Source: Octopus vulgaris (Eukaryota). Taken from it: a DNA stretch of 64,000 nt. The stretch covers positions 744,001-808,000 of the forward strand of contig OX597828.1 in assembly GCA_951406725.2 (NCBI GenBank). The letters are read 5' to 3'. Shown piece by piece: positions 1 to 64,000 of this stretch (its first letter is position 1; every line of letters begins with the position of its first letter). The notes below the pieces were generated by a model. The model was given only the letters and a program-made list of their open reading frames with translations, searched no databases and had not been told where the DNA came from. A program made the position numbers and the translations under genes.

Positions 1-502
1 CTGCAAAGTTACTGTTTTTAAGGGTGTCGCGAAGGGCCTTGTTGGAGATCCAGCCTTCCGAGTTCTTGTACAGGGATTAGAAAAAGTGAATGACCGCTGC
101 AATAAGTGCGTGAATCTGAGAGGGAAATATCTATATATATAAAACTCAACTTGTGTGTCTGTGTGTGTATCTGTGTGTGTGTGTGTGTGTGTTTAACTTC
201 CCGGCACATCTCCTCCTAGCCAACAAATCGTAGAACCATAAAAAATGGGTCACTTAAAGTTTAGGCGAATGAAAATTGAACTGCGCTATTTCTGTTCCGA
301 AATTCATCTCGCAAGTGCAAAGATCGATAATGTGTTTGTTTAGGCCTTATTCCATGCATTGAATAGTGAACTTTACTCAGTCAGCTGTTTGACGTGAACT
401 GTGTTCACCACGCGTGCAAGCATGCGTAAATTGCATGAAAAATAAAAAATCAAGATATAAAAACGAATCGCCGTAAACATTGTAGAAATTCGGCAAAGAA
501 AT

Positions 503-2179
503 TTTGAGGACGTCGGTTGTTATTATTTGAACGCGCGTGAAATTGTAAGTTGAAAAAATTGTTGTTGTTGAATTTGTTGTACGTTTGTTGATACGGTTTC
601 TTGTTATACTGTTTCTGTCCGGGCGGCCGTTGTCTGTCTGTGTTGAGACAGACAAAAGGATATGGACCACCCCTCCCTAATGGAGGAGTCGGAGGAGGAA
701 TGGTTATTCGAGACCTTGTCAGAAGCATCGATCTCTGAGGACGAGCTGATCGGCGCTGTGAATAATATGGACATTAAAACCGGGAAAACGTACGCTGGAG
801 CAGCAAAAAAGAAGACGACAGAGGAAAAGGAGATAAGTCTAGAAAAGTTGCCAGGTTTTCAAGCATACATAACTAAAGAAGGTGGTGAGGTAGAACTACT
901 TCCACCAGAGAAACGAGAAGAATGGTTTATGAAGAGAATTATAAAATACCAGACACATGGAAAAGATAACAAGAAAGTAGAAATAATAAAAATGGAAGTT
1001 ATTGAGGAGGCGCTAAGGAGAGAGGAGGAAGAAATCATATACATGGCAAGAGGAAACGAGTTCGGAACTATAATAGTGCAATTTGAAAACAAAAATATAG
1101 CAAGGAAAATAGCAACGAAGACAATAAAAACTGAAAAAGTAACATTATTACCCTCATACATGAACCAAAGAATAAAGAGAATAAGAGTTGAAGGGATACC
1201 CCCCCCCCACATAGAGGGTGAATGGGTCGTCGCGGCGATTATAAAAGATGCGGAAGAAGAGACGGACATTTTGCAAGCGACCGTAAAAAATGATGGTTGG
1301 CGTGGCAAAATGCTAGAGATGAGCGTTCAAGCAGAGGAGGGTGCACTAGAAAAGATGGCGGACAACATAATCTTGGGGAATATAGTAATGAGAGTGTGGG
1401 TGGAGGGCAGAGCACCAAGATGTTATAAGTGTGGACTGAGGGGCCACATAAGAGCCTACTGCCCTCCCCCACAAGAAGAAACTGTAAACCAGGAAAAAGA
1501 GGAGGTGGAGCAGGAAAAAGTTGAGGAGGAAGAAACGGAGGAGGAGAAGGAAGCCCAGACGAAATGGGAGAATGTAAGGAAAAAAAGAAAAAGAAAGAAA
1601 TCGAACTATGTCGAACCCCAACCCACCCCAACACCACCCGCACCCTCTGAGCCCCATCCTTCCCCTGCAAACAAAGATCCCACCCACTCCCCGCCTACAA
1701 GAAAACCAAAAAACGCAGACACACAAAGTAAACAAGATCCCAAGTCCCATTTTTTATGTTTTGTAAAAAAGGAAGACAATGAGAACTCGGAAAGAATCTT
1801 TTGTAAAGATGCATGGTATGAGGGAGACGATGGGAGTTACATGGTGATGGCAGATGAAGTAATGGACACAATGATGATGTTGTGTGTAAATGAGGGTGAA
1901 AAAGTGATTAAGGTGGAATTTTCGGATGAGAAGATAAAAGAGTATGAAAGGATATTTGAGAAAATGATAAGAAAAGAGGGGCTTTTGATTGAAGATGATA
2001 AATGACGATGGGTTATGAAGGACAGGTAAGTGGTGCTGGCAGATGGGGCCGTCAGCATCGCTTTCATATTATCATTCTCAAAATTTTTTTCATCCTACAT
2101 ACTTTTAATTTGTAATGTTCTGTGTCCCCAATGTCTTGTGGTATCCCCTCTGTGTCGCCCCTAGTGGGTAATAAAGAAA
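503..2179 (+). mobile_element. ORF1-only (half-LINE/HAL1-like) non-LTR retroelement, solo copy A
   Basis: Flanked by an exact 20-bp direct repeat TAGAAATTCGGCAAAGAAAT (483-502 and 2180-2199). Contains a single ORF and ends at GGGTAATAAAGAAA. No ORF2. Confidence 0.85.
662..2005 (+). CDS. Tx1/L1-clade ORF1 (gag-like) protein with CCHC zinc knuckle, 447 aa, intact
   Basis: RIRVEGIPP...RVWVEGRAPR followed by the CX2CX4HX4C knuckle CYKCGLRGHIRAYC. Then an acidic stretch, a basic KKRKRKK patch and a Pro-rich linker. Clearly homologous to the ORFs at 56.5-64 kb. Confidence 0.85.
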   Translation: MDHPSLMEESEEEWLFETLSEASISEDELIGAVNNMDIKTGKTYAGAAKKKTTEEKEISLEKLPGFQAYITKEGGEVELLPPEKREEWFMKRIIKYQTHGKDNKKVEIIKMEVIEEALRREEEEIIYMARGNEFGTIIVQFENKNIARKIATKTIKTEKVTLLPSYMNQRIKRIRVEGIPPPHIEGEWVVAAIIKDAEEETDILQATVKNDGWRGKMLEMSVQAEEGALEKMADNIILGNIVMRVWVEGRAPRCYKCGLRGHIRAYCPPPQEETVNQEKEEVEQEKVEEEETEEEKEAQTKWENVRKKRKRKKSNYVEPQPTPTPPAPSEPHPSPANKDPTHSPPTRKPKNADTQSKQDPKSHFLCFVKKEDNENSERIFCKDAWYEGDDGSYMVMADEVMDTMMMLCVNEGEKVIKVEFSDEKIKEYERIFEKMIRKEGLLIEDDK

Positions 2180-3047
2180 TAGAAATTCGGCAAAGAAATG
2201 AATTTTCGGGATGTAGCCTGGAGGGTTTTTTCGTATTAATCGTTTGGACTTTGTGAACACATACCAATTGTTTTCATAACATTTTTAACGCTTTGAATTA
2301 AATGTGACCATTTTGCGTTGATTCTGCAGTTTGTATCACTTTAACCAAATTTTAGCAGGCCGGATTTTTGATCATCACTGCTAGCCCGAAAAGAATAACA
2401 AGCTACATAATGCAAAATTTTTACTTTTAAGTGAACATTTTTCTGGTTGAAATATACCGAAAAATGTTGACTTTGCCTTTTATCCTTTTGGTGTCGATAA
2501 ATTAAGTATAAGCTTGCGTACTGGGGTCGCCATTTTTCGGTGTATTTCAACCAGAAAAATGTACACTTAAAGAGCTACATAATGCAAAATTTTTAATTTT
2601 CAAAAATTCCAATTCTAAACGGTCGAAACAAACCCGAACAACGCCGGGCGATACTGCTAGTGTGGAATAAAATCATAATCAACTGATCCTACTGTATTTT
2701 CTTTTGCCCAAAGCCAGGAACTTTTCAGCCCCACCCACCCCTGTACACACACACACACACACACACACACGTAATCAGCCATAACTTTATATAGCAAATA
2801 TGTAAACAAACCGACGGAGGAATTTAGCTGTTGCATCGAAGCAATGGAGTGACACTGCTGACGAGTCCCAGTTATAGGATGGGGCAATTTATTAGTATAT
2901 ATAAATCTGTTTCTCACACGTCTGTAAGAGTTTTAACTCTTATTTCTAGCAATAACTGTGATTTTAGTACTCACAGTTACAATTAGTGATGACTATATTT
3001 TTCCTATATGGCTTTGAATTGTGGCTAGCTGCTCACATTAATTTTTA

Positions 3048-49631: not shown

Positions 49632-52310
49632 TGTTGTGTGGACGCCCCCAGACGATGAAGTAGGCTAGCCCAATACGTAGATATAGAGGGAGAAGTCTAG
49701 ACGTCAAGGAATTGAGTAGAAGATTTTGTAGTTGACAGGTGTTATTTTGAGTTGCTGAAGTTGAGTTATATTTGTGAGTAGAAGTGAATTTATTGTTGAT
49801 ATTGCTTTTATTAATACCGTTGTTATTACTGTTAATTTTTTGTGTTGTTGAATCTTCCGATTGAGAAGGTGCCAGCGGGCGGCCACAGCTATGCAGTCGC
49901 AACTGGAGGACAAGCAGAGAAGGAAGCATTGAAGACGTATGAAATAAAAGTCGAGCCCAGAAAGATGAAGCCTAGCAAGAATCTGCTGAGAAAGGAAGGC
50001 GAGAAGATAATGTTGATGCCATCCGAGGAACTGACGAACAGTGTTATGAAGAGGACGGTGACGTACAAGACCGTGAAGGCCGCTACTAGAAAAATTGAGA
50101 TAGCATCGGTGGAGGAGATCGAGAAGGTGCTGGAAAGCATGAAGAAGGTGATAATATTCAGAGCATGAGGCAGGAAATATGCCACTGTGGACGTGCGTTT
50201 TACGTCAGAGGAGGAAGCGGTGAGGCATGTGACGGAGGCAATCCGCTCAGGAGAATGGATTCTTCAGCCATCCTATTGCGGCAAACGTGTAGCGAGAGTT
50301 CGGGTGGGTCAGGTACCCACTGAGCTGGAGGAAGCATGGCTGATGATGGCTATCATGTATAGCATGGAGGAGGAGGCCAAAATTCTGAAGGCAACCAGAA
50401 CAAACAAGGTGGACTACTGGGCTATGGGTTGGAGTTAACAATCCAGGCAACAGTGGAAGACCTCAACAGAATACCAGAGGAGATAGTGTTACCTGACGGG
50501 TTTTCACTAAGAATGAAGGATGAGGGCAAACCGCCTGTGTGTTATGAATGTGGCGAAAAGGGTCACATGAAGGCGAGATGCCCACGAAAAGAACAGATAG
50601 AGACTAACGAAAACGTTGAACAGGCAGTGACAGTTGAGAATAAGGAGAAAGCTGACGAAGAAGAATTCACACTGTTGGAAAGAAAAAGGAGTAGTGGTAG
50701 GGTAACCCTGCCGCCGACTAACCAAAAAAAGAAGAAAGAAGAGGTGGAAAAGAAAGAAACGACGAGAAAGAAAGAGGATACGGAAAAGGAAAGTGATCGA
50801 ATAATTAAGGTGTGTGACAACGAGTCAGAGAAGGAGGAAGCGTGTACAGGTGATTTGACGGAGGTCTTAGGAACGCAACTACAGGAGGATGAGATGGAGA
50901 AGCTGTTTACGGTAGAGACGGAGAAAGAGAAGGTACCAGACTCAGAGAAGAGTATAGAGGAGCTGTTGTTAGAAAAGGTAGTAAAGGAAGAAAGGAGAAG
51001 ACTGAGAGGAGGTAAGAACTAATGGAATTTTGTAACCTATTCGAAGAATAAGGAGGTGGAGAAGAAAATAGTTAAATTTAAGCACATCATTAGGGTAAAG
51101 CTACCAACTGACGTGTACCCAGAGAGTGTAGAGGCCATTGTGGTCGATAGAGGAACATAAGGAAGCTTAAGGATATATGTGGAAATAGGATTGACCCAGT
51201 TGGTGGAGTTTAATGAGCTGCCACCGGTAATCGATCTGGTGGAGTTAGAGCTGTATATGAGGCATTAAAATGAGGGGGAAAAAAGGAAAAAAAGAAAGGA
51301 AAAAGTTTGAAGAAATAGGAAAAAAACGATAATTAAATGAAAAAAAAGAAAAAATTATCAACAGACAGTGTGTGTACAAACGTTCAAATGGTACTGTATG
51401 AGGAGTGGGGCCCATGTAGCCATTCATCTTACATTTTTATATAATTCATATTCATTCGTTATATGTTTATTGTCCCCACTGTGGTGTTGTGTCTGTCTTT
51501 GTAATGTCCCCTCTGTGTTAAGTGGCCTGAGTGCCAAAATAAAAAATCAGTTGAGTAGAGGTCATCCGAACGTGTGATATAACAGTGGTGACGAGGATTT
51601 CGTAGCTCACACAGCCACTGTGTAGTATTGCGATATAACAGTGGCGACGAGGTTTCGAATAGTACCGAAATGGAAGAGTTACTGAAAGCAGTTGTAAAAC
51701 AACATGAGCAACAGCAGCAACAACTACAGAAGTTGTTACTGCAGTCGAGAAATATGACAGAATCATTTTCAGCAGATGGTGTTGCAAATTCCATCGAAGA
51801 ATTTCACTGCAATCCGGATGAAGGAACTACTTTTGCTGCATATTACAGACAATACGAAGACGTATTCCAAGAGGAATGCAAGAGATGGTCTAATGAAAGG
51901 AAGGTAAGGCTCTTTTTGCGAAAGCTTGCTACTCCGAAACACGAAAGATTTTCTAATTTTATTTTACCGAGAAAGCTCGCGCAATTGTGTTTTGATGAAA
52001 CGATAAATATTTTGACTAATATTTTTAGCGAGAAAAGTTCACAGTTTAACATTCGGTGGGAATGCTTAAATTTAAAGAAAAATGAGCCGACGATTTTGTA
52101 ATATATGCTGGTATGATTAATAAGGCTTGCAAAAGGTTTAAGCTGAAAGAATTAATGCCAGATATGTTCAAGTGCCTAATATTTGTTAAAGGGCTGGTGG
52201 CAACGGAAGACGCGGAAATTAGAAAAAGAATATTATCAAAGTTGAATCAAAATGTGAAACTCACTTTGCAGAATATGGCTGAGGAATGCCAACAAATAAT
52301 AAACATTTGT
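49632..52310 (+). mobile_element. Ty3/Gypsy remnant: short split 5' LTR (49632-49720 plus 51560-51584), PBS, gag fragment
   Basis: TGTTGT...ATAACA termini. PBS TGGTGACGAGGAT, complementary to a tRNA-Ser(GCU)-type 3' end, duplicated at ~51642. Gag-like ORF 51670-52310 (SIEEFHCNPDEGTTFAAYYRQYEDVF...KVRLFLRKL). Confidence 0.75.
49721..51550 (+). mobile_element. ORF1-only retroelement, diverged solo copy B (ORF disrupted)
   Basis: 9-bp TSD TTGAGTAGA (49712-49720, 51551-51559). ORF pieces 49842-51268 contain RVRVGQVP...EGKPPVCYECGEKGHMKARC. 3' UTR shares TGGGGCC, TGTCCCC and TAATGTCCCCTCTGTGT, and ends AATAAAAAATCAG. Confidence 0.8.
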
Positions 52311-55434: not shown

Positions 55435-55940
55435 TATCTTTTCGCCTTCCTTCATAATCGCACCAAGACACTTTTCAATGGTGCTTTCCTCCAGGTGTTC
55501 AAATCTTTTTTTCTCTACATTGTATACTTTATAGACAATAATCTTTTCTTTCATTTTATTTTTTATTTCGTTTGGTGGTGTTATCCTAGATTCACCGTCT
55601 TTGTCGGTGATCAATCCGAAATAGGTTTGTATTTCTTCCATTTTAATTTTAATGAGTTCGCGCCCGCCGACGACTGCAGCGAAATTCATTTTTGGACTTC
55701 CTTTTATCGAAAACATTTTAACAAAAATGCTTCCGTATAAACGGTGAAAATATTGTCAATTTCCCCAAACAGGGACAGAATTCAATTTTTAAACAATAAC
55801 CAAAGCTCCTTCTCCCAAAGGGGGAGGGTTACGGTTTACAATTATTTAACAAATGCAACACAACAACGTTTCTCTTACGAGGAACCAACAAACCTGATAA
55901 CAATAGTTAAACAGTAATAATAATAACAACAAACCTTACA
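55435..55940 (-). pseudogene. 5' fragment of a distant relative of the ORF1-only family
   Basis: NFAAVVGGRELIKIKMEEIQTYFGLITDKDGESRITPP...EKIIVYKVYNVEKKRFEHLEESTIEKCL aligns by eye with TYAGVTKK...DMAKLPSYQKYMKKESGEVELSPT...KRTIVYRVFANERKRVEVVTMEWIEEAL; (GTT)-rich leader. Confidence 0.65.
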
Positions 55941-56277
55941 ATGAATCAAAAACCAGTACTCAGTTGAAGCTATAGTCCTTTATGTATAAGAAATAAACCA
56001 ACAGCAGTACTCAGTAGAAACGGCTGTTCGAGAAAACAGACATTACATACAGCCAAACTTCATATAGATACTTAATTCTAGCTAATTAGCAGATAATCTA
56101 ATGTAAAAGCCGTGGTAAACTAAAGTATAATATAATTATTAAATCGTAACATAACAATTAAAAGTAAAAATAGCAATTGGTATAAAATTGCATCAATGAT
56201 TTGAACTTGAATAAGTGGTTTCACATGAATGGGAATAAATTAAAAATAAAATTAGCGTGCAGAAATGGAATAGTCCA

Positions 56278-58015
56278 GATGGATAATAAAAAATTAAATT
56301 AAAGAAAAGACTATTGTCTATAAAGTATGTAGAGAAAAAAGGTCGTGTTTTTTTCGGCTCCTGAAATTCGGTAAAAAAGAACAAAAAGCGTTGTTGTTGT
56401 TGTGGAAATTCTGAACGGCGTTGATGCGGTTTCGCGTCTCACTGGTTCTGCGCGTTACACTTTTTCGGTTCGGGAGGCCGTTTTTCGGTCTGAGGCGACT
56501 ATGAGCCGCCTACATCAAGCGGAGGAGATGGAAGGGAGAAATTACTCTGAAATTTCGACGGAAGTATCGACATCTGAGGAGGAGTTGGCGGTGAAAAAGA
56601 TGGAAGGCACCTACGCAGGTGTAACGAAGAAGTCAACGGAAAGAGAGATAGACCTGGCTAAGTTGGCGGGCCTCCAGGAGTTTGTGAAGGAGGACGAGAA
56701 CGGTGAAGTCGAGCTGCTGAATCCAGTAGGGCGCGGAGACTGGTTCCATCGTAGAACCATTAAATATAAAGTATTTATGAATGGAGGTAGAAAGATGGAA
56801 GTAATTAACATGGAAGCAATTGAAGAGGCTCTCAAGCAGACAGGAGAGGAAATTGTGTACATGACAAAAGGATTACAATACGGAACCATAACGGTGCAAT
56901 TTAAAAGTGAAAAAGCAGCCAGGAATGTAGCAGCCAAGGTGGTGAGTACAGAAAAGATTTACTTGTTACCCTCGTATCTGAATAGGCGGACAACCAGAAT
57001 TAGGGTGGAGGGAATACCTCCACACCTAGAGGGCGAATTAATAACGGCTGCGGTTATAAAAGGAAATGAAGATAAAGTGGACATCCTCCACGCCATTATG
57101 AAGTATGAAGGCGTGAGAGGTGCCACACTAGTTATGAACATTCAAACGGAGGCGGATGTTATAGAGAGGATTACGGACAGCATAAAAACTGGAAATATTA
57201 TTATGAGAGTGTGGGTGGAGGGTAGGGCGCCCAGGTGCTACAAGTGTGGCCAGAGGGGTCACATAAGAGCCTACTGCCCTCCCCCACCAAAGGAAAAAGA
57301 AAAGGAAAGCGTTGAGGAAGCCTCAAGAGAGGAAGAAAATAAACAGAAACAAACAGAGAAGGAAACGACAGAAGAAGAGGAGATGCAACAAGAGTGGAAA
57401 GAAGGGGGAACAAAGAGAAAAAGAAGGAAAAAGAAAAACTGTGCGAAGCCCCAACCCACCCCGACACCACCCATACCCTTGGAGTCCCATCCTTCCCCTG
57501 CAAACAGTGATTCCACCCACTCCCCTCCAACAAGAAAACAAAAAAAAATTAACACAGACAGACAAGAGACTGAAAGCGAACCCAGGCCGAACATTTGTAT
57601 TATGACAGAACAGGAAGAGGTTAAAAGGGTAATGGAAGGGTATACATGGTGCGATTCAGGTGTGACCAGGTGTGCAGTGATTGAAAAGGAGCGAATAGAT
57701 GAGTTTATGAGAAGGTGCGAAAGGGAGAATTGGGAGGTGGAAGAGATGAGTCTGAGTGATGAATCCGTGAAAAATATGGAGAATCGTTTTGAAGTGAGAA
57801 TGGAGAATATCGGTTTTATTATTGGAAATTGGAGTGACGGCGAAAACCAAAGGACAGGTAAGTGATGCTAACGGATGGGGCCTTTAGCATCGCTTTCATA
57901 TTATCATTTTTTCATGTAACAATTCATCCTTCATAAATTTAATTATAATGTTCTATGTCCCCATGTCTTGTAATGTCCCCCTCTTCGTTGGCCCCTTGTG
58001 GGTAATAAAGAATCA
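56278..58015 (+). mobile_element. ORF1-only element, array unit 1 (distinct subfamily)
   Basis: Leader, ORF, then 3' UTR ending GGGTAATAAAGAATCA; 5' boundary uncertain. Confidence 0.85.
56501..57865 (+). CDS. Tx1/L1-type ORF1 CCHC protein, intact, 454 aa from first ATG
   Basis: RVWVEGRAPRCYKCGQRGHIRAYC; ends QRTGK*. Confidence 0.85.
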   Translation: MSRLHQAEEMEGRNYSEISTEVSTSEEELAVKKMEGTYAGVTKKSTEREIDLAKLAGLQEFVKEDENGEVELLNPVGRGDWFHRRTIKYKVFMNGGRKMEVINMEAIEEALKQTGEEIVYMTKGLQYGTITVQFKSEKAARNVAAKVVSTEKIYLLPSYLNRRTTRIRVEGIPPHLEGELITAAVIKGNEDKVDILHAIMKYEGVRGATLVMNIQTEADVIERITDSIKTGNIIMRVWVEGRAPRCYKCGQRGHIRAYCPPPPKEKEKESVEEASREEENKQKQTEKETTEEEEMQQEWKEGGTKRKRRKKKNCAKPQPTPTPPIPLESHPSPANSDSTHSPPTRKQKKINTDRQETESEPRPNICIMTEQEEVKRVMEGYTWCDSGVTRCAVIEKERIDEFMRRCERENWEVEEMSLSDESVKNMENRFEVRMENIGFIIGNWSDGENQRTGK

Positions 58016-59777
58016 ATTGTCTATAAAGTATACAATGTAGAGAAAGGTCGCGTTTTTTTCGGCTCCTGAAAATTCGGTAAAAAAGAACAAAAAGCGTTGT
58101 TGTTGTTGTGGAAATTCTGAACGGCGTTGACGCGGTTTCGCGTTTCGCTCGTTCAGCGCGTTACACTTTTTCTGTTTTGGCGGCCGTTTTCGGTCTGTCA
58201 GACAGAAGGAAATGGACTATGAGTCTTTAACAGACTTGTCCACGACAGATGAGGAACTGGAACAGGCAATTGCAATGAAGCTGATGGAAGAAAAGGCTGG
58301 AGTTTTCGAGTCTTTATCAGACTTGCCTACGTCTGAGAAGGAGCTAGAAACGGCAGCAAGGGAATTGGAAGAGAAGCTGGGTTATACCTATGCCGGTGTA
58401 ACCAAGAAGGCGGAAGAAAAGGGGTCGACATGGCCAAGTTGCCAAGTTACCAGAAATACATGAAAAAGGAAAGCGGTGAGGTGGAACTATCACCGACACC
58501 CAGGAGAAAAGAATGGTATGATAAGAGGACCATTGTTTACAGGGTGTTCGCAAACGAAAGGAAGAGGGTAGAAGTTGTAACCATGGAATGGATAGAGGAA
58601 GCCCTGCGAAGAACTGAGGAGGAAATAAATTTTCTGACTCGAGGATCCAAGTACGGGACCGTAGTTGTGCACTTTGAAGGTGAATCTGCAGCGAGGAGGA
58701 TGGCAGCGAGGGCGGTGAGGTCGGAAAGGGTAACACTGTTACCTACGTATTTAAACAGGAGGATTGCACGAATGAGGGTGGAGGGAGTGCCACCAAGCGT
58801 GGAGGCAGAATGGATTGTGGCGGCTGTGATCAGCGGCCACGAGGACGAAGTGGATATTCTCCATGCCTCGGTTAAGTCCGAGGGCTGGAGAGGCGTAACA
58901 GTGGAGCTGAACGTACAGGCAGAGACCGAGGTACTGGTGGACCTGACGGAAGGCATCAGACTGGGAGAAGTGATCATGAGAGTGTGGGTGGAGGGCAGGG
59001 CTCCACGTTGTTACAAGTGTGGCCTGAGGGGTCACATAAGAGCCTTCTGCCCTCCCCCAGGGAAAGAAATGGATCCCGAACCAGAGAGAGAGAAGCAGAA
59101 ACCAGAGGAGAAGGAAACAGAGGAGGAGAATACACAGAAATGGAAGGAAGCTGGAAGTAAGAGGAAGAGAAGAATACGTGGAAAAGAAAATAATATGGAA
59201 CTCCAATCCGCCCCAAAGCCACCCACGCCCTCTGAGTCCCACCCTATCCATGCAGACATTGAACCCACCCGCTCCCCCCAACAAGAAAACAAAAGAAGAA
59301 AAAGAATACACACACACAAGAGATTGAAATCGATATCAGGCCGTACATTTGTACTATGACTGAACAGAAAGAAGTTAGAAGTCTAATGGAAGAGTATAAA
59401 TGGTATGATGTTGGTGAGACTAGGTATGCTGTGATTGAAAGGAAGAACATAGGTGACTTTATGGTGATGTGTGAATGCGAGAATTGGGAGGTGAAAGATA
59501 TAAGAATGAGCGATGAATTCGTGGAAAGTATGGATGAGTATTTCGGAGTAAGAATGGATATGGAATTTATTCGTATTGGCAAGGAACATTCAAGTGACTA
59601 TGAAAAGCAAAGGACAGGTAAGTGATGCTGACGGACGGGGCCGTTGGTATCGCTTTCATTTAATCATTTTTTCGTTTAACAGTTCATTTTCATAAAGTTT
59701 AATTATAGTGTTCTATGTCCCCATGTTTTGTTATGTCCGCCATTCTTCGTAGCCCCTTAGTGGGTAATAAAAAAAAG
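58016..59777 (+). mobile_element. ORF1-only element, array unit 2 (ORF 58212-59625 with frameshifts)
   Basis: Starts ATTGTCTATAAAG directly after unit 1; ORF split across 58212-58463, 58430-59359 and 59356-59625. Confidence 0.88.
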
Positions 59778-61577
59778 AGATGGATAATAAAAAATTAAAT
59801 TAAAGAAAAGACTATTGTCTATAAAGTATACAATGTAGAGAAAGGTCGCGTTTTTTCGGCTCCTGAAAATTCGGTAAAAAAGAACAAAAAGCGTTGTTGT
59901 TGTTGTGGAAATTCTGAACGGCGTTGACGCGGTTTCGCGTTTCGCTCGTTCAGCGCGTTACACTTTTTCTGTTTTGGCGGCCGTTTTCGGTCTGTCAGAC
60001 AGAAGGAAATGGACTATGAGTCTTTAACAGACTTGTCCACGACAGATGAGGAACTGGAACAGGCAATTGCAGTAAAGCTGATGGAGGAAAAGGCTGGAGT
60101 TTTCGAGTCTTTATCAGACTTGTATATCTGAGGAGGAGCTAGAAATAGCAGTGAGGAAAATGGATCAGAAGCTGGGTTATACCTATGCCGGTGTAACCAA
60201 GAAGGCGGAAGAGAAAGGGGTCGACATGGCCAAGTTGCCAAGTTACCAGAAATACATGAAAAAGGAAAGCGGTGAGGTGGAACTATCACCGACACCCAGG
60301 AGAAAAGAATGGTATGATAAGAGGACCATTGTTTACAGGGTGTTCGCAAACGAAAGGAAGAGGGTAGAAGTTGTAACCATGGAATGGATAGAGGAAGCCC
60401 TGCGAAGAACTGAGGAGGAAATAAATTTTCTGACTCGAGGATCCAAGTACGGGACCGTAGTTGTGCACTTTAAAAGTGAATCTGTAGCGAGGAAGATGGC
60501 AGCGAAGGCGGTGAAGTCGGAAAAGGTAACACTGTTACCTACGTATTTAAACAGGAGGATTACACGAATAAGGGTGGAGGGAGTGCCACCAAACGTGGAG
60601 GCAGAATGGATTGTGGCGGCTGTGATCAGCGGCCACGAGGACGAAGTGGATATTCTCCATGCCTCGGTTAAGTCCGAGGGCTGGAGAGGCGTAACAGTGG
60701 AGCTGAACGTACAGGCAGAGACCGAGGTACTGGTGGACCTGACGGAAAGCATCAGACTGGGAGAAGTGATCATGAGAGTGTGGGTGGAGGGCAGGGCTCC
60801 ACGTTGTTACAAGTGTGGCCTGAGGGGTCACATAAGAGCCTTCTGCCCTCCCCCAGGGAAAGAAATGGATCCCGAACCAGAGAGAGAGAAGCAGAAACCA
60901 GAGGAGAAGGAAACAGAGGAAGAGAATACACAGAAATGGAAGGAAGCTGGAAGTAAGAGGAAGAGAAGAATATGTGGAAAAAAAGAAAATAATATGGAAC
61001 TCCAATCTACCCCAAAACCTCCCACACCCTCTGAGTCCCACCCTATCCATGCAGACATTGAACCCACCCGCTCCCCCCCAACAAGAAAACAAAAGGAAAA
61101 AAAGAATACACACACACAAGAGATTGAAATCGAACCCAGGCCGTACATTTGTACTATGACTGAACAGAGGGAAGTTAAAAGTCTAATGGAAGAGTATAAA
61201 CGGTATGATGTTGGAGAGACTAGGTATGCTGTGATTGAAAAGAAGAACATAGGTGAGTTTATGGGGAGGTGTGAAAGGGAGAATTGGGAGGTGAAAGATA
61301 TAAGAATGAGCGATGAATTCGTGGAAAATATGAATGAGTATTTCGGAGTAAGAATGGATATGGAATTTATTCGTATTGGCAAAGAACATTCAAGTGACTA
61401 TGAAAAACAAAGGACAGGTAAGTGATGCTGACGGACGGGGCCGTTGGTATCGCTTTCATTTTATCATTTTTTTTCGTTTAACAATACATGTTCATAAAGT
61501 TTAATTATAATGTTCTATGTCCCCATGTCTTTTGTTGTCCCCCTCTGTGTCGCCCCTTAGTGGGTAATAAAAAATCA
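59778..61577 (+). mobile_element. ORF1-only element, array unit 3 (ATG 60009, small deletion ~60122; long frame 60151-61425)
   Basis: Starts AGATGGATAATAAAAAATT; ends GGGTAATAAAAAATCA. Confidence 0.88.
60151..61425 (+). CDS. ORF1 CCHC protein of unit 3, N-terminally disrupted
   Basis: 424-aa open frame containing CYKCGLRGHIRAFC. Confidence 0.7.
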   Translation: MRKMDQKLGYTYAGVTKKAEEKGVDMAKLPSYQKYMKKESGEVELSPTPRRKEWYDKRTIVYRVFANERKRVEVVTMEWIEEALRRTEEEINFLTRGSKYGTVVVHFKSESVARKMAAKAVKSEKVTLLPTYLNRRITRIRVEGVPPNVEAEWIVAAVISGHEDEVDILHASVKSEGWRGVTVELNVQAETEVLVDLTESIRLGEVIMRVWVEGRAPRCYKCGLRGHIRAFCPPPGKEMDPEPEREKQKPEEKETEEENTQKWKEAGSKRKRRICGKKENNMELQSTPKPPTPSESHPIHADIEPTRSPPTRKQKEKKNTHTQEIEIEPRPYICTMTEQREVKSLMEEYKRYDVGETRYAVIEKKNIGEFMGRCERENWEVKDIRMSDEFVENMNEYFGVRMDMEFIRIGKEHSSDYEKQRTGK

Positions 61578-63295
61578 GCTCCTGAAAATTCGGTAAAAAA
61601 GAACAAAAAGCGTTGTTGTTGTGGAAATTCTGAACGGCGTTGACGCGGTTTCGCGTTTCGCTCGTTCAGCGCGTTACACTTTTTCTGTTTTGGCGGCCGT
61701 TTTCGGTCTGTCAGACAGAAGGAAATGGACTATGAGTCTCTAACAGACTTGTCCACGACGGATGAGGAACTGGAACAGGCAATTGCAGTGAAGCTGATGG
61801 AGGAAAAGGCTGGAGTTTTCGAGTCTTTATCAGACTTGCCTACGTCTGAGAAGGAGCTAGAAATGGCAGCAAGGAAATTGGAAGACAAGCTGAGTTATAC
61901 CTATGCCGGTGTAACCAAGAAGGCGGAAGAGAAAGGGGTCGACATGGCCAAGTTGCCAAGTTACCAGAAATACATGAAAAAGGAAAGCGGTGAGGTGGAA
62001 CTATCACCGACACCCAGGAGAAAAGAATGGTATGATAAGAGGACCATTGTTTACAGGGTGTGCGCAAACGAAAGGAAGAGGGTAGAAGTTGTATCCATGG
62101 AATGGATAGAGGAAGCCCTGCGAAGAACTGAGGAGGAAATAAATTTTCTGACTCGAGGATCCAAGTACGGGACCGTAGTTGTGCACTTTAAAAGTGAATC
62201 TGCAGCGAGGAAGATGGCAGCGAAGGCGGTGAAGTCGGAAAAGGTAACACTGTTACCTACGTATTTAAACAGGAGGATTACACGAATAAGGGTGGAGGGA
62301 GTGCCACCAAACGTGGAGGCAGAATGGATTGTGGCGGCTGTGATCAGCGGCCACGAGGACGAAGTGGATATTCTCCATGCCTCGGTTAAGTCCGAGGGCT
62401 GGAGAGGCGTAACAGTGGAGCTGAACGTACAGGCAGAGACCGAGGTACTGGTGGACCTGACGGAAAGCATCAGACTGGGAGAAGTGATCATGAGAGTGTG
62501 GGTGGAGGGCAGGGCTCCACGTTGTTACAAGTGTGGCCTGAGGGGTCACATAAGAGCCTTCTGCCCTCCCCCAGGGAAAGAAATGGATCCCGAACCAGAG
62601 AGAGAGAAGCAGAAACCAGAGGAGAAGGAAACAGAGGAAGAGAATACACAGAAATGGAAGGAAGCTGGAAGTAAGAGGAAGAGAAGAATATGTGGAAAAA
62701 AAGAAAATAATATGGAACTCCAATCTACCCCAAAACCTCCCACACCCTCTGAGTCCCACCCTATCCATGCAGACATTGAACCCACCCGCTCCCCCCCAAC
62801 AAGAAAACAAAAGAAAAAAAAGAATACACACACACAAGAGATTGAAATCGAACCCAGGCCGTACATTTGTACTATGACTGAACAGAGGAAGTTAAAAGTC
62901 TAATGGAAGAGTATAAACGGTATGATGTTGGAGAGACTAGGTATGCTGTGATTGAAAAGAAGAACATAGGTGAGTTTATGGGGAGGTGTGAAAGGGAGAA
63001 TTGGGAGGTGAAAGATATAAGAATGAGCGATGAATTCGTGGAAAATATGAATGAGTATTTCGGAGTAAGAATGGATATGGAATTTATTCGTATTGGCAAA
63101 GAACATTCAAGTGACTATGAAAAACAAAGGACAGGTAAGTGATGCTGACGGACGGGGCCGTTGGTATCGCTTTCATTTTATCATTTTTTTCGTTTAACAC
63201 TTCATGTTCATATAGTTTAATTATAATGTTCTATGTCCCCATGTTTTGTGATGTCCGGCACTCTTCGTAGCCCCTTAGTGGGTAATAAAGAAATA
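61578..63295 (+). mobile_element. ORF1-only element, array unit 4 (ORF 61725-63142, one frameshift ~62888)
   Basis: Starts GCTCCTGAAAATTCGG; ends GGGTAATAAAGAAATA. Confidence 0.88.
61725..63142 (+). CDS. ORF1 CCHC protein of unit 4 (single 1-nt deletion, possibly a sequencing error)
   Basis: Frames 61725-62903 and 62903-63142 together are colinear with unit 3. Confidence 0.7.
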
Positions 63296-64000
63296 CGTTT
63301 TTTTTCGGCTCCTGAAATTCGGTAAAAAAGAACAAAAAGCGTTGTTGTTGTTGTGGAAATTCTGAACGGCGTTGACGCGGTTTCGCGTTTCGCTCGTTCA
63401 GCGCGTTACACTTTTTCTGTTTTGGCGGCCGTTCTCGGTCTGTCAGACAGAAGGAAATGGACTATGAGTCTCTAACAGACTTGTCCACGACAGATGAGGA
63501 ACTGGAACAGGCAATTGCAATGAAGCTGATGGAAGAAAAGGCTGGAATTTTCGAGTCTTTATCAGACCTGCCTACGTCTGAGAAAGAGCTAGAAATGGCA
63601 GCAAGGAATTTGGAAGAGAAGCTGGGTTATACCTATGCCGGTGTAACCAAGAAGGCGGAAGAGAAAGGGGTAGACATGGCCAAGTTGCCAAGTTACCAGA
63701 AATACATGAAAAAGGAAAGCGGTGAGGTGGAACTATCACCGACACCCAGGAGAAAGGAATGGTATGATAAGAGGACCATTATTTACAGGGTGTTCGCAAA
63801 CGAAAGGAAGAGGGTAGAAGTTGTAACCATGGAATGGATAGAGGAGGCCCTGCGAAGAACTGAGGAGGAAATAAATTTTCTGACTCGAGGATCCAAGTAC
63901 GGTACCGTAGTTGTGCATTTCAAAACTGAGTCTGCAGCGAGGAAGATGGCGGCGAAGGCGGTGAAGTCAGAAAAGGTAACCCTATTACCTACGTATTTAA
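63296..64000 (+). mobile_element. ORF1-only element, array unit 5 (ATG 63457, runs off the window)
   Basis: Starts CGTTTTTTTTCGGCTCC; MDYESLTDLS... frame open to the window end. Confidence 0.88.

What the first reader, a model, noticed from the sequence alone, without database searches (positions are those of the whole stretch)
57855..58015. Covarying RNA structure in the 3' UTR: ~15-bp hairpin with a GGGG loop that can pseudoknot to a downstream CCCC
Seen: a hairpin just after or overlapping the stop codon in each copy. Unit 1: AAGTGATGCTAACGG-ATGGGG-CCTTTAGCATCGCTT (57860-57895). Units 2-4: AAGTGATGCTGACGG-ACGGGG-CCGTTGGTATCGCTT (59620, 61420, 63137). Solo A: AAGTGGTGCTGGCAG-ATGGGG-CCGTCAGCATCGCTT (2028-2063). 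Most substitutions keep pairing (A-U, G-U, G-C swaps), and the G-U pairs indicate + strand RNA. Diverged copy B has a different stem (AATGG..CTGTATG / CATGTAG-CCATT, 51387-51424) but the same TGGGGCC apex. About 70-80 nt downstream, unit 1 has CCCCAT, complementary to its loop ATGGGG. Copy B has CCCCACT (51474-51480), complementary to its loop AGTGGGG, which is an apparent compensatory change. In units 2-4 this pairing has one mismatch. Inference: a conserved cis-acting RNA element for RT recruitment, ORF1p loading or 3' end protection.
Basis: partly seen in the sequence, partly recalled or inferred. Interest (0 to 1): 0.75.

Follow-up and report, generated by a model that had tools for sequence, protein, structure and literature searches.

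The report
Folded RNA tail of octopus half-LINEs
Several old families of an octopus jumping gene that encodes only an RNA-binding protein share a conserved tail predicted to fold into a long hairpin, likely knotted to a downstream run of C, which most likely serves as the handle that a borrowed copying enzyme grips, a known kind of signal in a shape I did not find described.

Summary
The hairpin is real. It sits in the ~165-nt tail of a ~1.7-kb ORF1-only retroelement (two RRMs plus a zinc knuckle) whose named relatives are octopod. In the four copies folded it beats shuffles in three (z -3.6 to -4.7), but not in diverged copy B. The tail is selected: the first 57 nt differ at 6 of 57 sites between families that differ at 23 of 37 four-fold ORF sites, and the tail starts sharply behind unrelated upstream sequence in three organisms' runs. 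'Covarying' is overstated: 6 of 8 stem changes keep pairing, nearly all one-sided G-U, and the shuffle control is not beaten (386 of 500). The loop-CCCC pseudoknot has classical geometry. Copy B extends it (7-bp complement, 0 of 2000 shuffles), and public contigs hold both a five-G loop and a five-C partner, though not shown on one molecule: odds about 0.6. Best reading: a stringent LINE-type recognition tail for a trans-acting reverse transcriptase (0.55). No ribozyme core was found. New member of a known kind; interest 0.4.

The parts
56501..57865 (+). ORF1 of unit 1, 454 aa, open; two RRM folds and one CCHC knuckle; no reverse transcriptase
   Evidence: octopod relatives
57849..58015 (+). 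Conserved 3' tail module of unit 1, ending in AATAAA and a few A-rich bases, with no long poly(A)
   Evidence: depth doubles at 57849-57851 with unrelated loose ends upstream; junctions
57852..57856 (+). 5' strand (GGACA) of a predicted closing helix; invariant in 5 of 5 alignable copies
57855..57863 (+). Perfect 5' splice-site consensus CAG|GTAAGT; present in U1-4 and A, absent from B; 8 of 9 nt paired in the consensus fold
57860..57895 (+). 15-bp hairpin (57860-57874 with 57881-57895), predicted to extend by two pairs below a bulged U
57875..57880 (+). Loop A-N-GGGG; G4 invariant; position 2 is U, C or G
57916..57935 (+). Variable AU-rich linker between two conserved blocks
57936..57965 (+). 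Second conserved block, ending in the candidate pseudoknot partner CCCCA (57959-57963)
57974..57978 (+). 3' strand (TGTCC) of the predicted closing helix; broken at one pair in solo A
57991..58009 (+). Small terminal hairpin followed by AATAAA (58004-58009); copy B has the C-G pairs flipped to G-C
59609..59772 (+). Tail of unit 2 (hairpin at 59620)
61409..61572 (+). Tail of unit 3 (hairpin at 61420)
63126..63290 (+). Tail of unit 4 (hairpin at 63137)
483..2199 (+). Solo copy A: 20-bp target-site duplication (483-502 and 2180-2199), open 447-aa ORF1 from 662, tail 2017-2176
49712..51559 (+). Diverged, broken copy B: 9-bp duplication (49712 and 51551), hairpin 51387-51424, CCCCACT 51474-51480, terminal hairpin 51523-51536

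Best explanation
This is the conserved 3' tail of a family of ORF1-only octopus retroelements, predicted to fold into a long hairpin whose G-rich loop likely pairs with a downstream C run, and it most likely works as the recognition signal by which a reverse transcriptase borrowed from a complete LINE selects and positions this RNA for copying. Shown: the elements encode only an RNA-binding protein, are flanked by target-site duplications, end a few bases after AATAAA, and keep the tail far better than the silent sites of their ORF. Predicted: the fold (closing helix, 15-17-bp stem, H-type knot with a one-A first loop and 4-6 pairs, terminal hairpin). Inferred from other LINE clades: the partner's ORF2 protein binds the knot and nearby single-stranded bases and starts copying just past the terminal hairpin. 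In units 1 and 3 the stop codon lies inside the stem, so the fold would form only when no ribosome is terminating there.
For: Retroposed and RT-less: duplications of 20 and 9 bp; only a zinc knuckle in Pfam and a tandem-RRM fold. Selection on the tail: U1 against A differs at 6 of 57 sites in the first block and at 23 of 37 four-fold ORF sites (p 1.7e-7); the first block is more invariant than the linker (p 2.6e-6), which simple recent tail exchange does not explain. Module border at about 57849 with different upstream sequences in 3 of 3 runs that held it. All 3 stem variants above 6% in 228, 129 and 117 contigs keep or restore pairing; G4 and C4 show no substitution row. 6 of 8 stem changes keep pairing (p 0.027 against random changes). 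Knot: B's 7-nt complement (0 of 2000); a five-G loop at 13%, 33% and 30% of summed depth, and a five-C partner among kept loose ends in the two runs with 30-33%. Precedent: stem-loop tails bound by ORF2 in zebrafish L2 (PMC4176376, passages), a pseudoknot-hinge-stem bound by avian and turtle R2 proteins with rescue by compensatory mutation (PMC11601368, passages), a hairpin tail in one plant L1 lineage (PMC3472496, passages).
Against: No autonomous partner sharing this tail was found: the tail profile hit only the six known copies in the window, not the RT-bearing LINE remnants there. Covariation does not beat its shuffle control (386 of 500); given the same substitution types, 6 of 8 is unremarkable (p 0.23). 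B's stem is weak. U2-4 break the fifth knot pair (3 of 5 copies). The five-G loop and five-C partner were not seen on one contig. The whole 30-nt second block is conserved, so C4 is not singled out. Known recognition hairpins usually lie close to the 3' end (recalled); here the small terminal hairpin could do that job alone, which would leave the long hairpin about 115 nt upstream to another role. The perfect splice site is not explained by this reading.
Confidence: 0.55

Rival explanations
1. The fold is a 3'-end switch: it hides a perfect U1 snRNP site about 140 nt upstream of AAUAAA. Folded, the RNA would be cut and polyadenylated for translation; open, U1 would block that and give read-through RNA, which could be the template that is copied. 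It could act together with RT recognition.
For: CAG|GTAAGT occurs 6 times in the 64-kb window on both strands, 5 of them in these tails. It is kept in solo A, where it lies outside the ORF, and has no variant row in public contigs. The consensus fold pairs 8 of its 9 nt; opening it costs 4.5-8.6 kcal/mol. Genomic copies lack long poly(A). Foamy viruses use structure to block U1 and allow polyadenylation (PMC3694450, abstract and section 11).
Against: Copy B has no such site. The five copies are one inherited event, not five. The same bases are explained by the stem and closing helix. No joint at this donor was listed in 4 runs, though these are contigs and the one RNA label is a guess.
Confidence: 0.15
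2. The tail serves the RNA's life before copying: a loading site for the element's own ORF1 protein, or a stability or localisation element, with the RT using only the terminal hairpin.
For: ORF1 has two RRM folds and a knuckle and is under purifying selection (pN about 0.25 against pS about 0.7). A separate small hairpin with flipped pairs in B sits directly before AAUAAA.
Against: ORF1 families only about 57-60% identical over the core share nearly the same tail, which fits a shared outside binder better than each family's own protein. LINE ORF1 proteins are mostly non-specific binders (recalled). No Rfam stability element matched.
Confidence: 0.15
3. The sequence is conserved for a primary-sequence reason or was spread by recent tail exchange; the hairpin is inherited, its G-U pairs come from A-to-I editing and ordinary transitions, and the knot is chance.
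For: No significant covariation; 4 of 8 stem changes are A>G; unit 2 has 23 A>G among 44 private changes against 3 G>A; B's stem is not exceptional; several C4 runs are on offer; unit 1 looks like a 5' chimera, so exchange between families occurs.
Against: Conservation is blockwise, with a freely changing linker. U1's mismatch is private: 79-96% of depth has the pairing base. B keeps the same order of parts with other letters, a 7-nt loop complement and a flipped terminal stem.
Confidence: 0.11
4. The element is a self-cleaving ribozyme of a new class.
For: A loop-to-strand pairing next to a closing helix loosely recalls small ribozymes, and other retroelements carry ribozymes (recalled).
Against: No Rfam hit at gathering score in the window, and only 2 chance hits (E 8-9) around the finding. 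No hammerhead or pistol core in any of 6 tails; my rough HDV descriptor hit only B (2 hits; 0 in the other 11 strand scans). Genomic copies run through the structure to AATAAA, so a cut inside it would separate the ORF from the end that is copied.
Confidence: 0.04

Closest known systems
Stringent-type LINE 3' tails: zebrafish ZfL2-1/ZfL2-2 and eel UnaL2 (PMC4176376, passages); maize/sorghum L1 hairpin tail (PMC3472496, PMC3747384, passages)
   Same: Conserved stem with a more conserved loop in the 3' tail of a non-LTR element; tail shared between families that need one RT.
   Different: Longer module (about 165 nt) with a 15-bp stem about 115 nt from the end, a candidate knot and a second terminal hairpin; host element is ORF1-only; RT binding untested.
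A-clade R2 3' UTR pseudoknot-hinge-stem (PMC11601368, passages)
   Same: A pseudoknot upstream of a 3' stem, with conserved single-stranded bases nearby.
   Different: R2 is a single-ORF element with another endonuclease type; its visible fold is within 65 nt; no sequence likeness was tested; the knot here has a 63-nt third loop and is unproven.
HAL1, HeT-A and Ag-Sponge, ORF1-present non-autonomous LINEs (PMC5786205, PMC5753468, passages)
   Same: Only ORF1 is encoded; an RT must come in trans; head-to-tail stacking recalls HeT-A.
   Different: Those derive from L1, Jockey and CR1; this protein has two RRMs and a knuckle (nearest named Atlas cluster ZCCHC3-like, score 0.90) and is probably Tx1-type, a label that is inferred, not tested by an RT tree.
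Foamy virus 3' LTR splice-donor masking (PMC3694450, abstract and section 11)
   Same: A splice donor upstream of a poly(A) signal, largely buried in structure.
   Different: A retroviral LTR with two alternative folds shown by SHAPE; here only a prediction, and the site is missing in copy B.

Membership tests
Stringent-type LINE 3' recognition tail | Lies in the 3' tail of a non-LTR retroelement | tested here: met
   Target-site duplications, AATAAA end and ORF1 upstream
Stringent-type LINE 3' recognition tail | Tail more conserved than neighbouring neutral sites and shared between families | tested here: met
   6 of 57 against 23 of 37, p 1.7e-7; sharp border
Stringent-type LINE 3' recognition tail | Stem kept by compensatory changes | tested here: inconclusive
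   6 of 8 changes keep pairs, but the shuffle control gives 386 of 500
Stringent-type LINE 3' recognition tail | Same tail on an autonomous RT-encoding LINE | tested here: inconclusive
   None in this window; no genome held; earlier AI notes report tail-sharing trains elsewhere in the genome, not checked for this tail
Stringent-type LINE 3' recognition tail | Needed for retrotransposition and bound by ORF2p | not testable with these tools
   Needs a cell assay and a binding assay
H-type RNA pseudoknot | Pairing bases at the 3' side of the loop, a short first loop, and a third loop long enough to span the stem | tested here: met
   G4 abuts the 3' stem strand; 1-2 nt first loop; 63 nt to the partner; the geometry rule is recalled
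H-type RNA pseudoknot | Covariation between loop and partner | tested here: inconclusive
   B extension 0 of 2000, but only 2 of its 7 pairs are new; five-G and five-C variants co-occur in two runs without shown linkage; fifth pair broken in U2-4
ORF1-present non-autonomous LINE (HAL1-like) | ORF1 only, no RT, between the duplicated target sites | tested here: met
   Solo A: one 447-aa ORF between 20-bp repeats
Tx1 clade | Placement by the partner's RT phylogeny | not testable with these tools
   No partner RT in hand; ORF1 architecture only
Known self-cleaving ribozymes (hammerhead, HDV-like, twister, pistol) | Catalytic core and family covariance-model match | tested here: not met
   Rfam (all four families); motif scan for hammerhead, HDV-like and pistol

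The most novel reading that the evidence does not exclude
The tail is a two-state RNA switch: a pseudoknotted RT-recognition fold that also buries a perfect U1 site and overlaps the ORF1 stop codon, so that translation, U1-controlled 3'-end formation and capture by the partner RT are coupled in one 165-nt element, the first such pseudoknot switch in an L1/Tx1-type retroelement.
Probability: 0.12. Interest if true: 0.75.

Novelty: new member of a known kind. Interest (0 to 1): 0.4.

Why it matters
How L1/Tx1-type reverse transcriptases choose their template when there is no long poly(A) is little studied; my searches found worked examples for L2, R2 and one plant L1 lineage, and none for this group. 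A defined 165-nt tail with natural variants gives a direct test, and a portable tail would be a handle for trans-mobilisation experiments. If the buried splice site is functional it would link U1-controlled 3'-end formation to LINE template choice. If the best reading alone holds, it is one more example of a known signal.

Tried and rejected
The word-index protein search found nothing (0 of 5985 candidates); the profile search did (465 proteins at E<=0.001), but gave no DNA. Viral contigs: 0 relatives among 256 pattern matches; 2 motif matches with no ORF1. Metagenome contigs: 0 among 279; 73 matches to a generalised tail pattern, 0 of 73 with AATAAA downstream and 0 of 75 loci with an ORF1 profile hit, so chance. 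Run X20 (organism D, RNA) laid 0 contigs, which proves nothing. Stop-codon readthrough: rejected, since a second stop follows two codons later in U1 and U3. SECIS: a loose pattern hit both strands and no SECIS helix is present; rejected. Splicing or back-splicing at the donor: no joint listed, weak because these are contigs. A closing helix made with the bases right after CCCCA was set aside: by my estimate it cannot coexist with the knot across a 15-bp stem, and RNAalifold chose the later TGTCC. MAFFT misaligned B, so B was left out of the pair counts and compared by hand. I first read as showing no partner change for the loop's second base, then corrected this from the loose-end table. I first took the repeat upstream of unit 1 for a DNA-transposon end; it is a piece of another ORF1 family.

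Full report
Context. The finding lies in a repeated ~1.7-kb element. The window holds solo copy A, a broken diverged copy B, four complete tandem units U1-U4 and a fifth cut by the window end. A is bounded by a 20-bp duplication and B by a 9-bp one. The only long ORF has a zinc knuckle in Pfam, folds with mean pLDDT 91 and matches tandem-RRM structures; the nearest named Atlas cluster is ZCCHC3-like (0.90). A profile search found 465 relatives at E<=0.001. I looked up 10 of them: 8 carry names, all octopod (Octopus sinensis, O. vulgaris, O. bimaculoides, Argonauta hians). The element is therefore an ORF1-only non-LTR retroelement of an octopod. 'Tx1-type' is my inference from the domain order and is recalled, not tested by a tree. 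Only U1 and A have an open ORF of full length.

The observation. U2-4 form 15 of 15 pairs, U1 and A 14 of 15. U1, U2 and A beat dinucleotide shuffles (1, 0 and 2 of 500); B does not (387 of 500). The whole tail is not unusually stable, and 1 of 70 windows in the ORF has a lower z than the hairpin, so energy alone proves little. The stop codon lies inside the stem in U1 and U3, about 22 nt upstream in A and about 118 nt upstream in B.

Selection. Over the ORF core the three alignable lineages (U1, U2-4, A) differ at 67-71% of synonymous sites and about 25% of non-synonymous sites, while their tails differ by 15-25%. The first 57 nt of the tail differ at 6 of 57 sites between U1 and A, against 23 of 37 four-fold sites (p 1.7e-7), and are more invariant than the AU-rich linker (p 2.6e-6). 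In public contigs of three organisms (228, 129 and 117 contigs laid; a fourth run laid 0) depth doubles at 57849-57851 with unrelated sequence upstream, falls in the linker and rises again over 57936-57965. The tail is thus a module of two conserved blocks that different ORF1 families share. Summed contig depth is not copy number, and variants near contig ends are not counted.

Covariation. In five alignable copies, 8 of 15 stem pairs never vary, 5 vary on one side, 2 are broken in one copy, and none has a two-sided change against the commonest pair; 386 of 500 shuffles reach the score. One pair runs A-U, G-U, G-C across lineages. In the contigs only 3 stem positions vary above 6%, and all keep or restore pairing; U1's mismatch is private (79-96% of depth has the pairing base). 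Pooling the window copies and the contigs, 6 of 8 distinct changes keep pairing: p 0.027 against random changes, p 0.23 given the same change types. Four of the eight are A>G. Unit 2 carries 23 A>G among 44 private changes, 11 of them in a row, against 3 G>A, which looks like A-to-I editing fixed by reverse transcription. Some G-U pairs may therefore be editing scars. The stem is supported by conservation; covariation is not shown.

The pseudoknot. The G4 run lies at the 3' side of the loop, directly before the 3' stem strand, as in an H-type knot, with 63 nt to the partner. G4 and C4 have no substitution row. A 4-bp partner alone is common by chance (665-767 of 2000), and 2-3 C4 runs follow each hairpin, but U1's 6-nt complement (44 of 2000) and B's 7-nt complement (0 of 2000) both use the first run. 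Only 2 of B's 7 pairs are new, so its added weight is about 1 in 16. Loop position 2 is G in 13%, 33% and 30% of depth in runs X3, X8 and X13. The loose-end tables show a five-C partner in X8 (2 contigs, kept) and X13 (1 contig), but not among the 6 ends kept for X3; 39 further ends were not shown. It equals A's length class with the fifth base changed from A to C. In X13 the G loop has the same depth as two U2-type stem changes (2346, 2209, 2260), and the five-C end continues with U2's downstream letters. A U-A to G-C double change is thus plausible, but no contig was shown to hold both. Against: U2-4 have a C-A mismatch at this pair, and the whole 30-nt block is conserved, not C4 alone. I put the knot at about 0.6.

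RNAalifold closes the domain with GGACA (57852-57856) and TGTCC (57974-57978) and extends the stem by two pairs; the closing helix has no covariation and one broken pair in A. A small hairpin stands directly before AATAAA, with its C-G pairs flipped in B. CAG|GTAAGT at 57855-57863 is a perfect 5' splice site; 5 of its 6 occurrences in the window are in these tails. The consensus fold pairs 8 of its 9 bases, and opening it costs 4.5-8.6 kcal/mol. B lacks it, and no joint at it was listed.

Mechanism. An RT-less element must be picked up by another element's enzyme. Its copies end a few bases after AATAAA with no long poly(A), and families with saturated silent sites keep one tail. The simplest account is stringent recognition of a folded tail by the partner's ORF2 protein (0.55). 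Precedents: loop-specific binding of 3' stem-loops by zebrafish L2 ORF2 (PMC4176376, passages); a pseudoknot-hinge-stem bound by A-clade R2 proteins, with rescue by compensatory mutation (PMC11601368, passages); a hairpin tail in a plant L1 lineage (PMC3472496 and PMC3747384, passages). The partner was not found: a tail profile hit only the six copies. Rivals are a U1-masking 3'-end switch as in foamy viruses (PMC3694450, abstract and section 11; 0.15), ORF1p loading or stability (0.15), an unselected fold (0.11) and a ribozyme (0.04).

Novelty. ORF1-only LINEs are a described class (PMC5786205 and PMC5753468, passages), and Tx1 elements with target preference and tandem SINE insertions are known (PMC4494074, passages). 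L1-Tx1 is annotated widely in molluscs (PMC10294476, passages). PMC9580041 was searched for four terms with no hits; other papers were seen only as search listings. Eight searches showed no description of this tail or of a pseudoknot in an L1/Tx1-type 3' UTR. The library lacks most subscription papers and Repbase was not available; no supplements were read, and those of the Ohshima papers hold the hairpin figures. Earlier AI notes of this scan already describe these stacked ORF1-only elements in the same genome and similar structured tails in two other genomes, one with its pseudoknot unsupported; I treat them as leads. Verdict: a real, selected RNA tail; new member of a known kind; interest 0.4.

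Noticed in passing
window 58362-59125: Unit 2 has 11 consecutive private A>G changes (23 of 44 private changes overall, against 3 G>A; G rare on the 5' side), like ADAR editing fixed by reverse transcription.
   Followed up: partly
window 56278-63350: Each tandem junction restarts at a different point of the same 5' region (equivalents of 56311, 56278, 56357, 56348), and unit 1 has a 5' end 89% like units 2-5 although its ORF is another family. This fits successive insertions into the 5' end of the resident copy better than unequal crossing-over.
   Followed up: partly
window 55450-55704 (-) and 56230-56340 (+): 5' part of another ORF1 family on the minus strand with no tail in the window, and a short plus-strand piece of the same family directly upstream of the array; very deep in public runs.
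   Followed up: partly
window 58165-58203 (also 56456-56495 and 604-647): A pyrimidine tract ending in AG lies just upstream of the ORF1 start in each copy, so ORF1 is flanked by an acceptor-like and a donor-like site; by eye a unit-to-unit splice would not be in frame, and none was listed.
   Followed up: partly
window 49632-51660: Copy B appears to sit inside the LTR of a Ty3/gypsy-type element (primer-site-like motif at 51642; gag-like DUF7083 ORF from 51592).
   Followed up: no
window 127-2662: Solo A appears to sit inside a Helitron-like non-autonomous repeat (ends judged by eye), and its duplicated target shares a GAAATTCGG motif with the 5' region of the tandem units.
   Followed up: no
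window 57545-57850: Public contigs join 57545-57564 to 57845-57850, pointing to shorter family members that lack or replace the ORF1 C-terminal domain but keep the tail.
   Followed up: no
window 56998-57043: A 46-nt window inside the unit 1 ORF folds with z -5.3, lower than the tail hairpin; conservation not checked.
   Followed up: no
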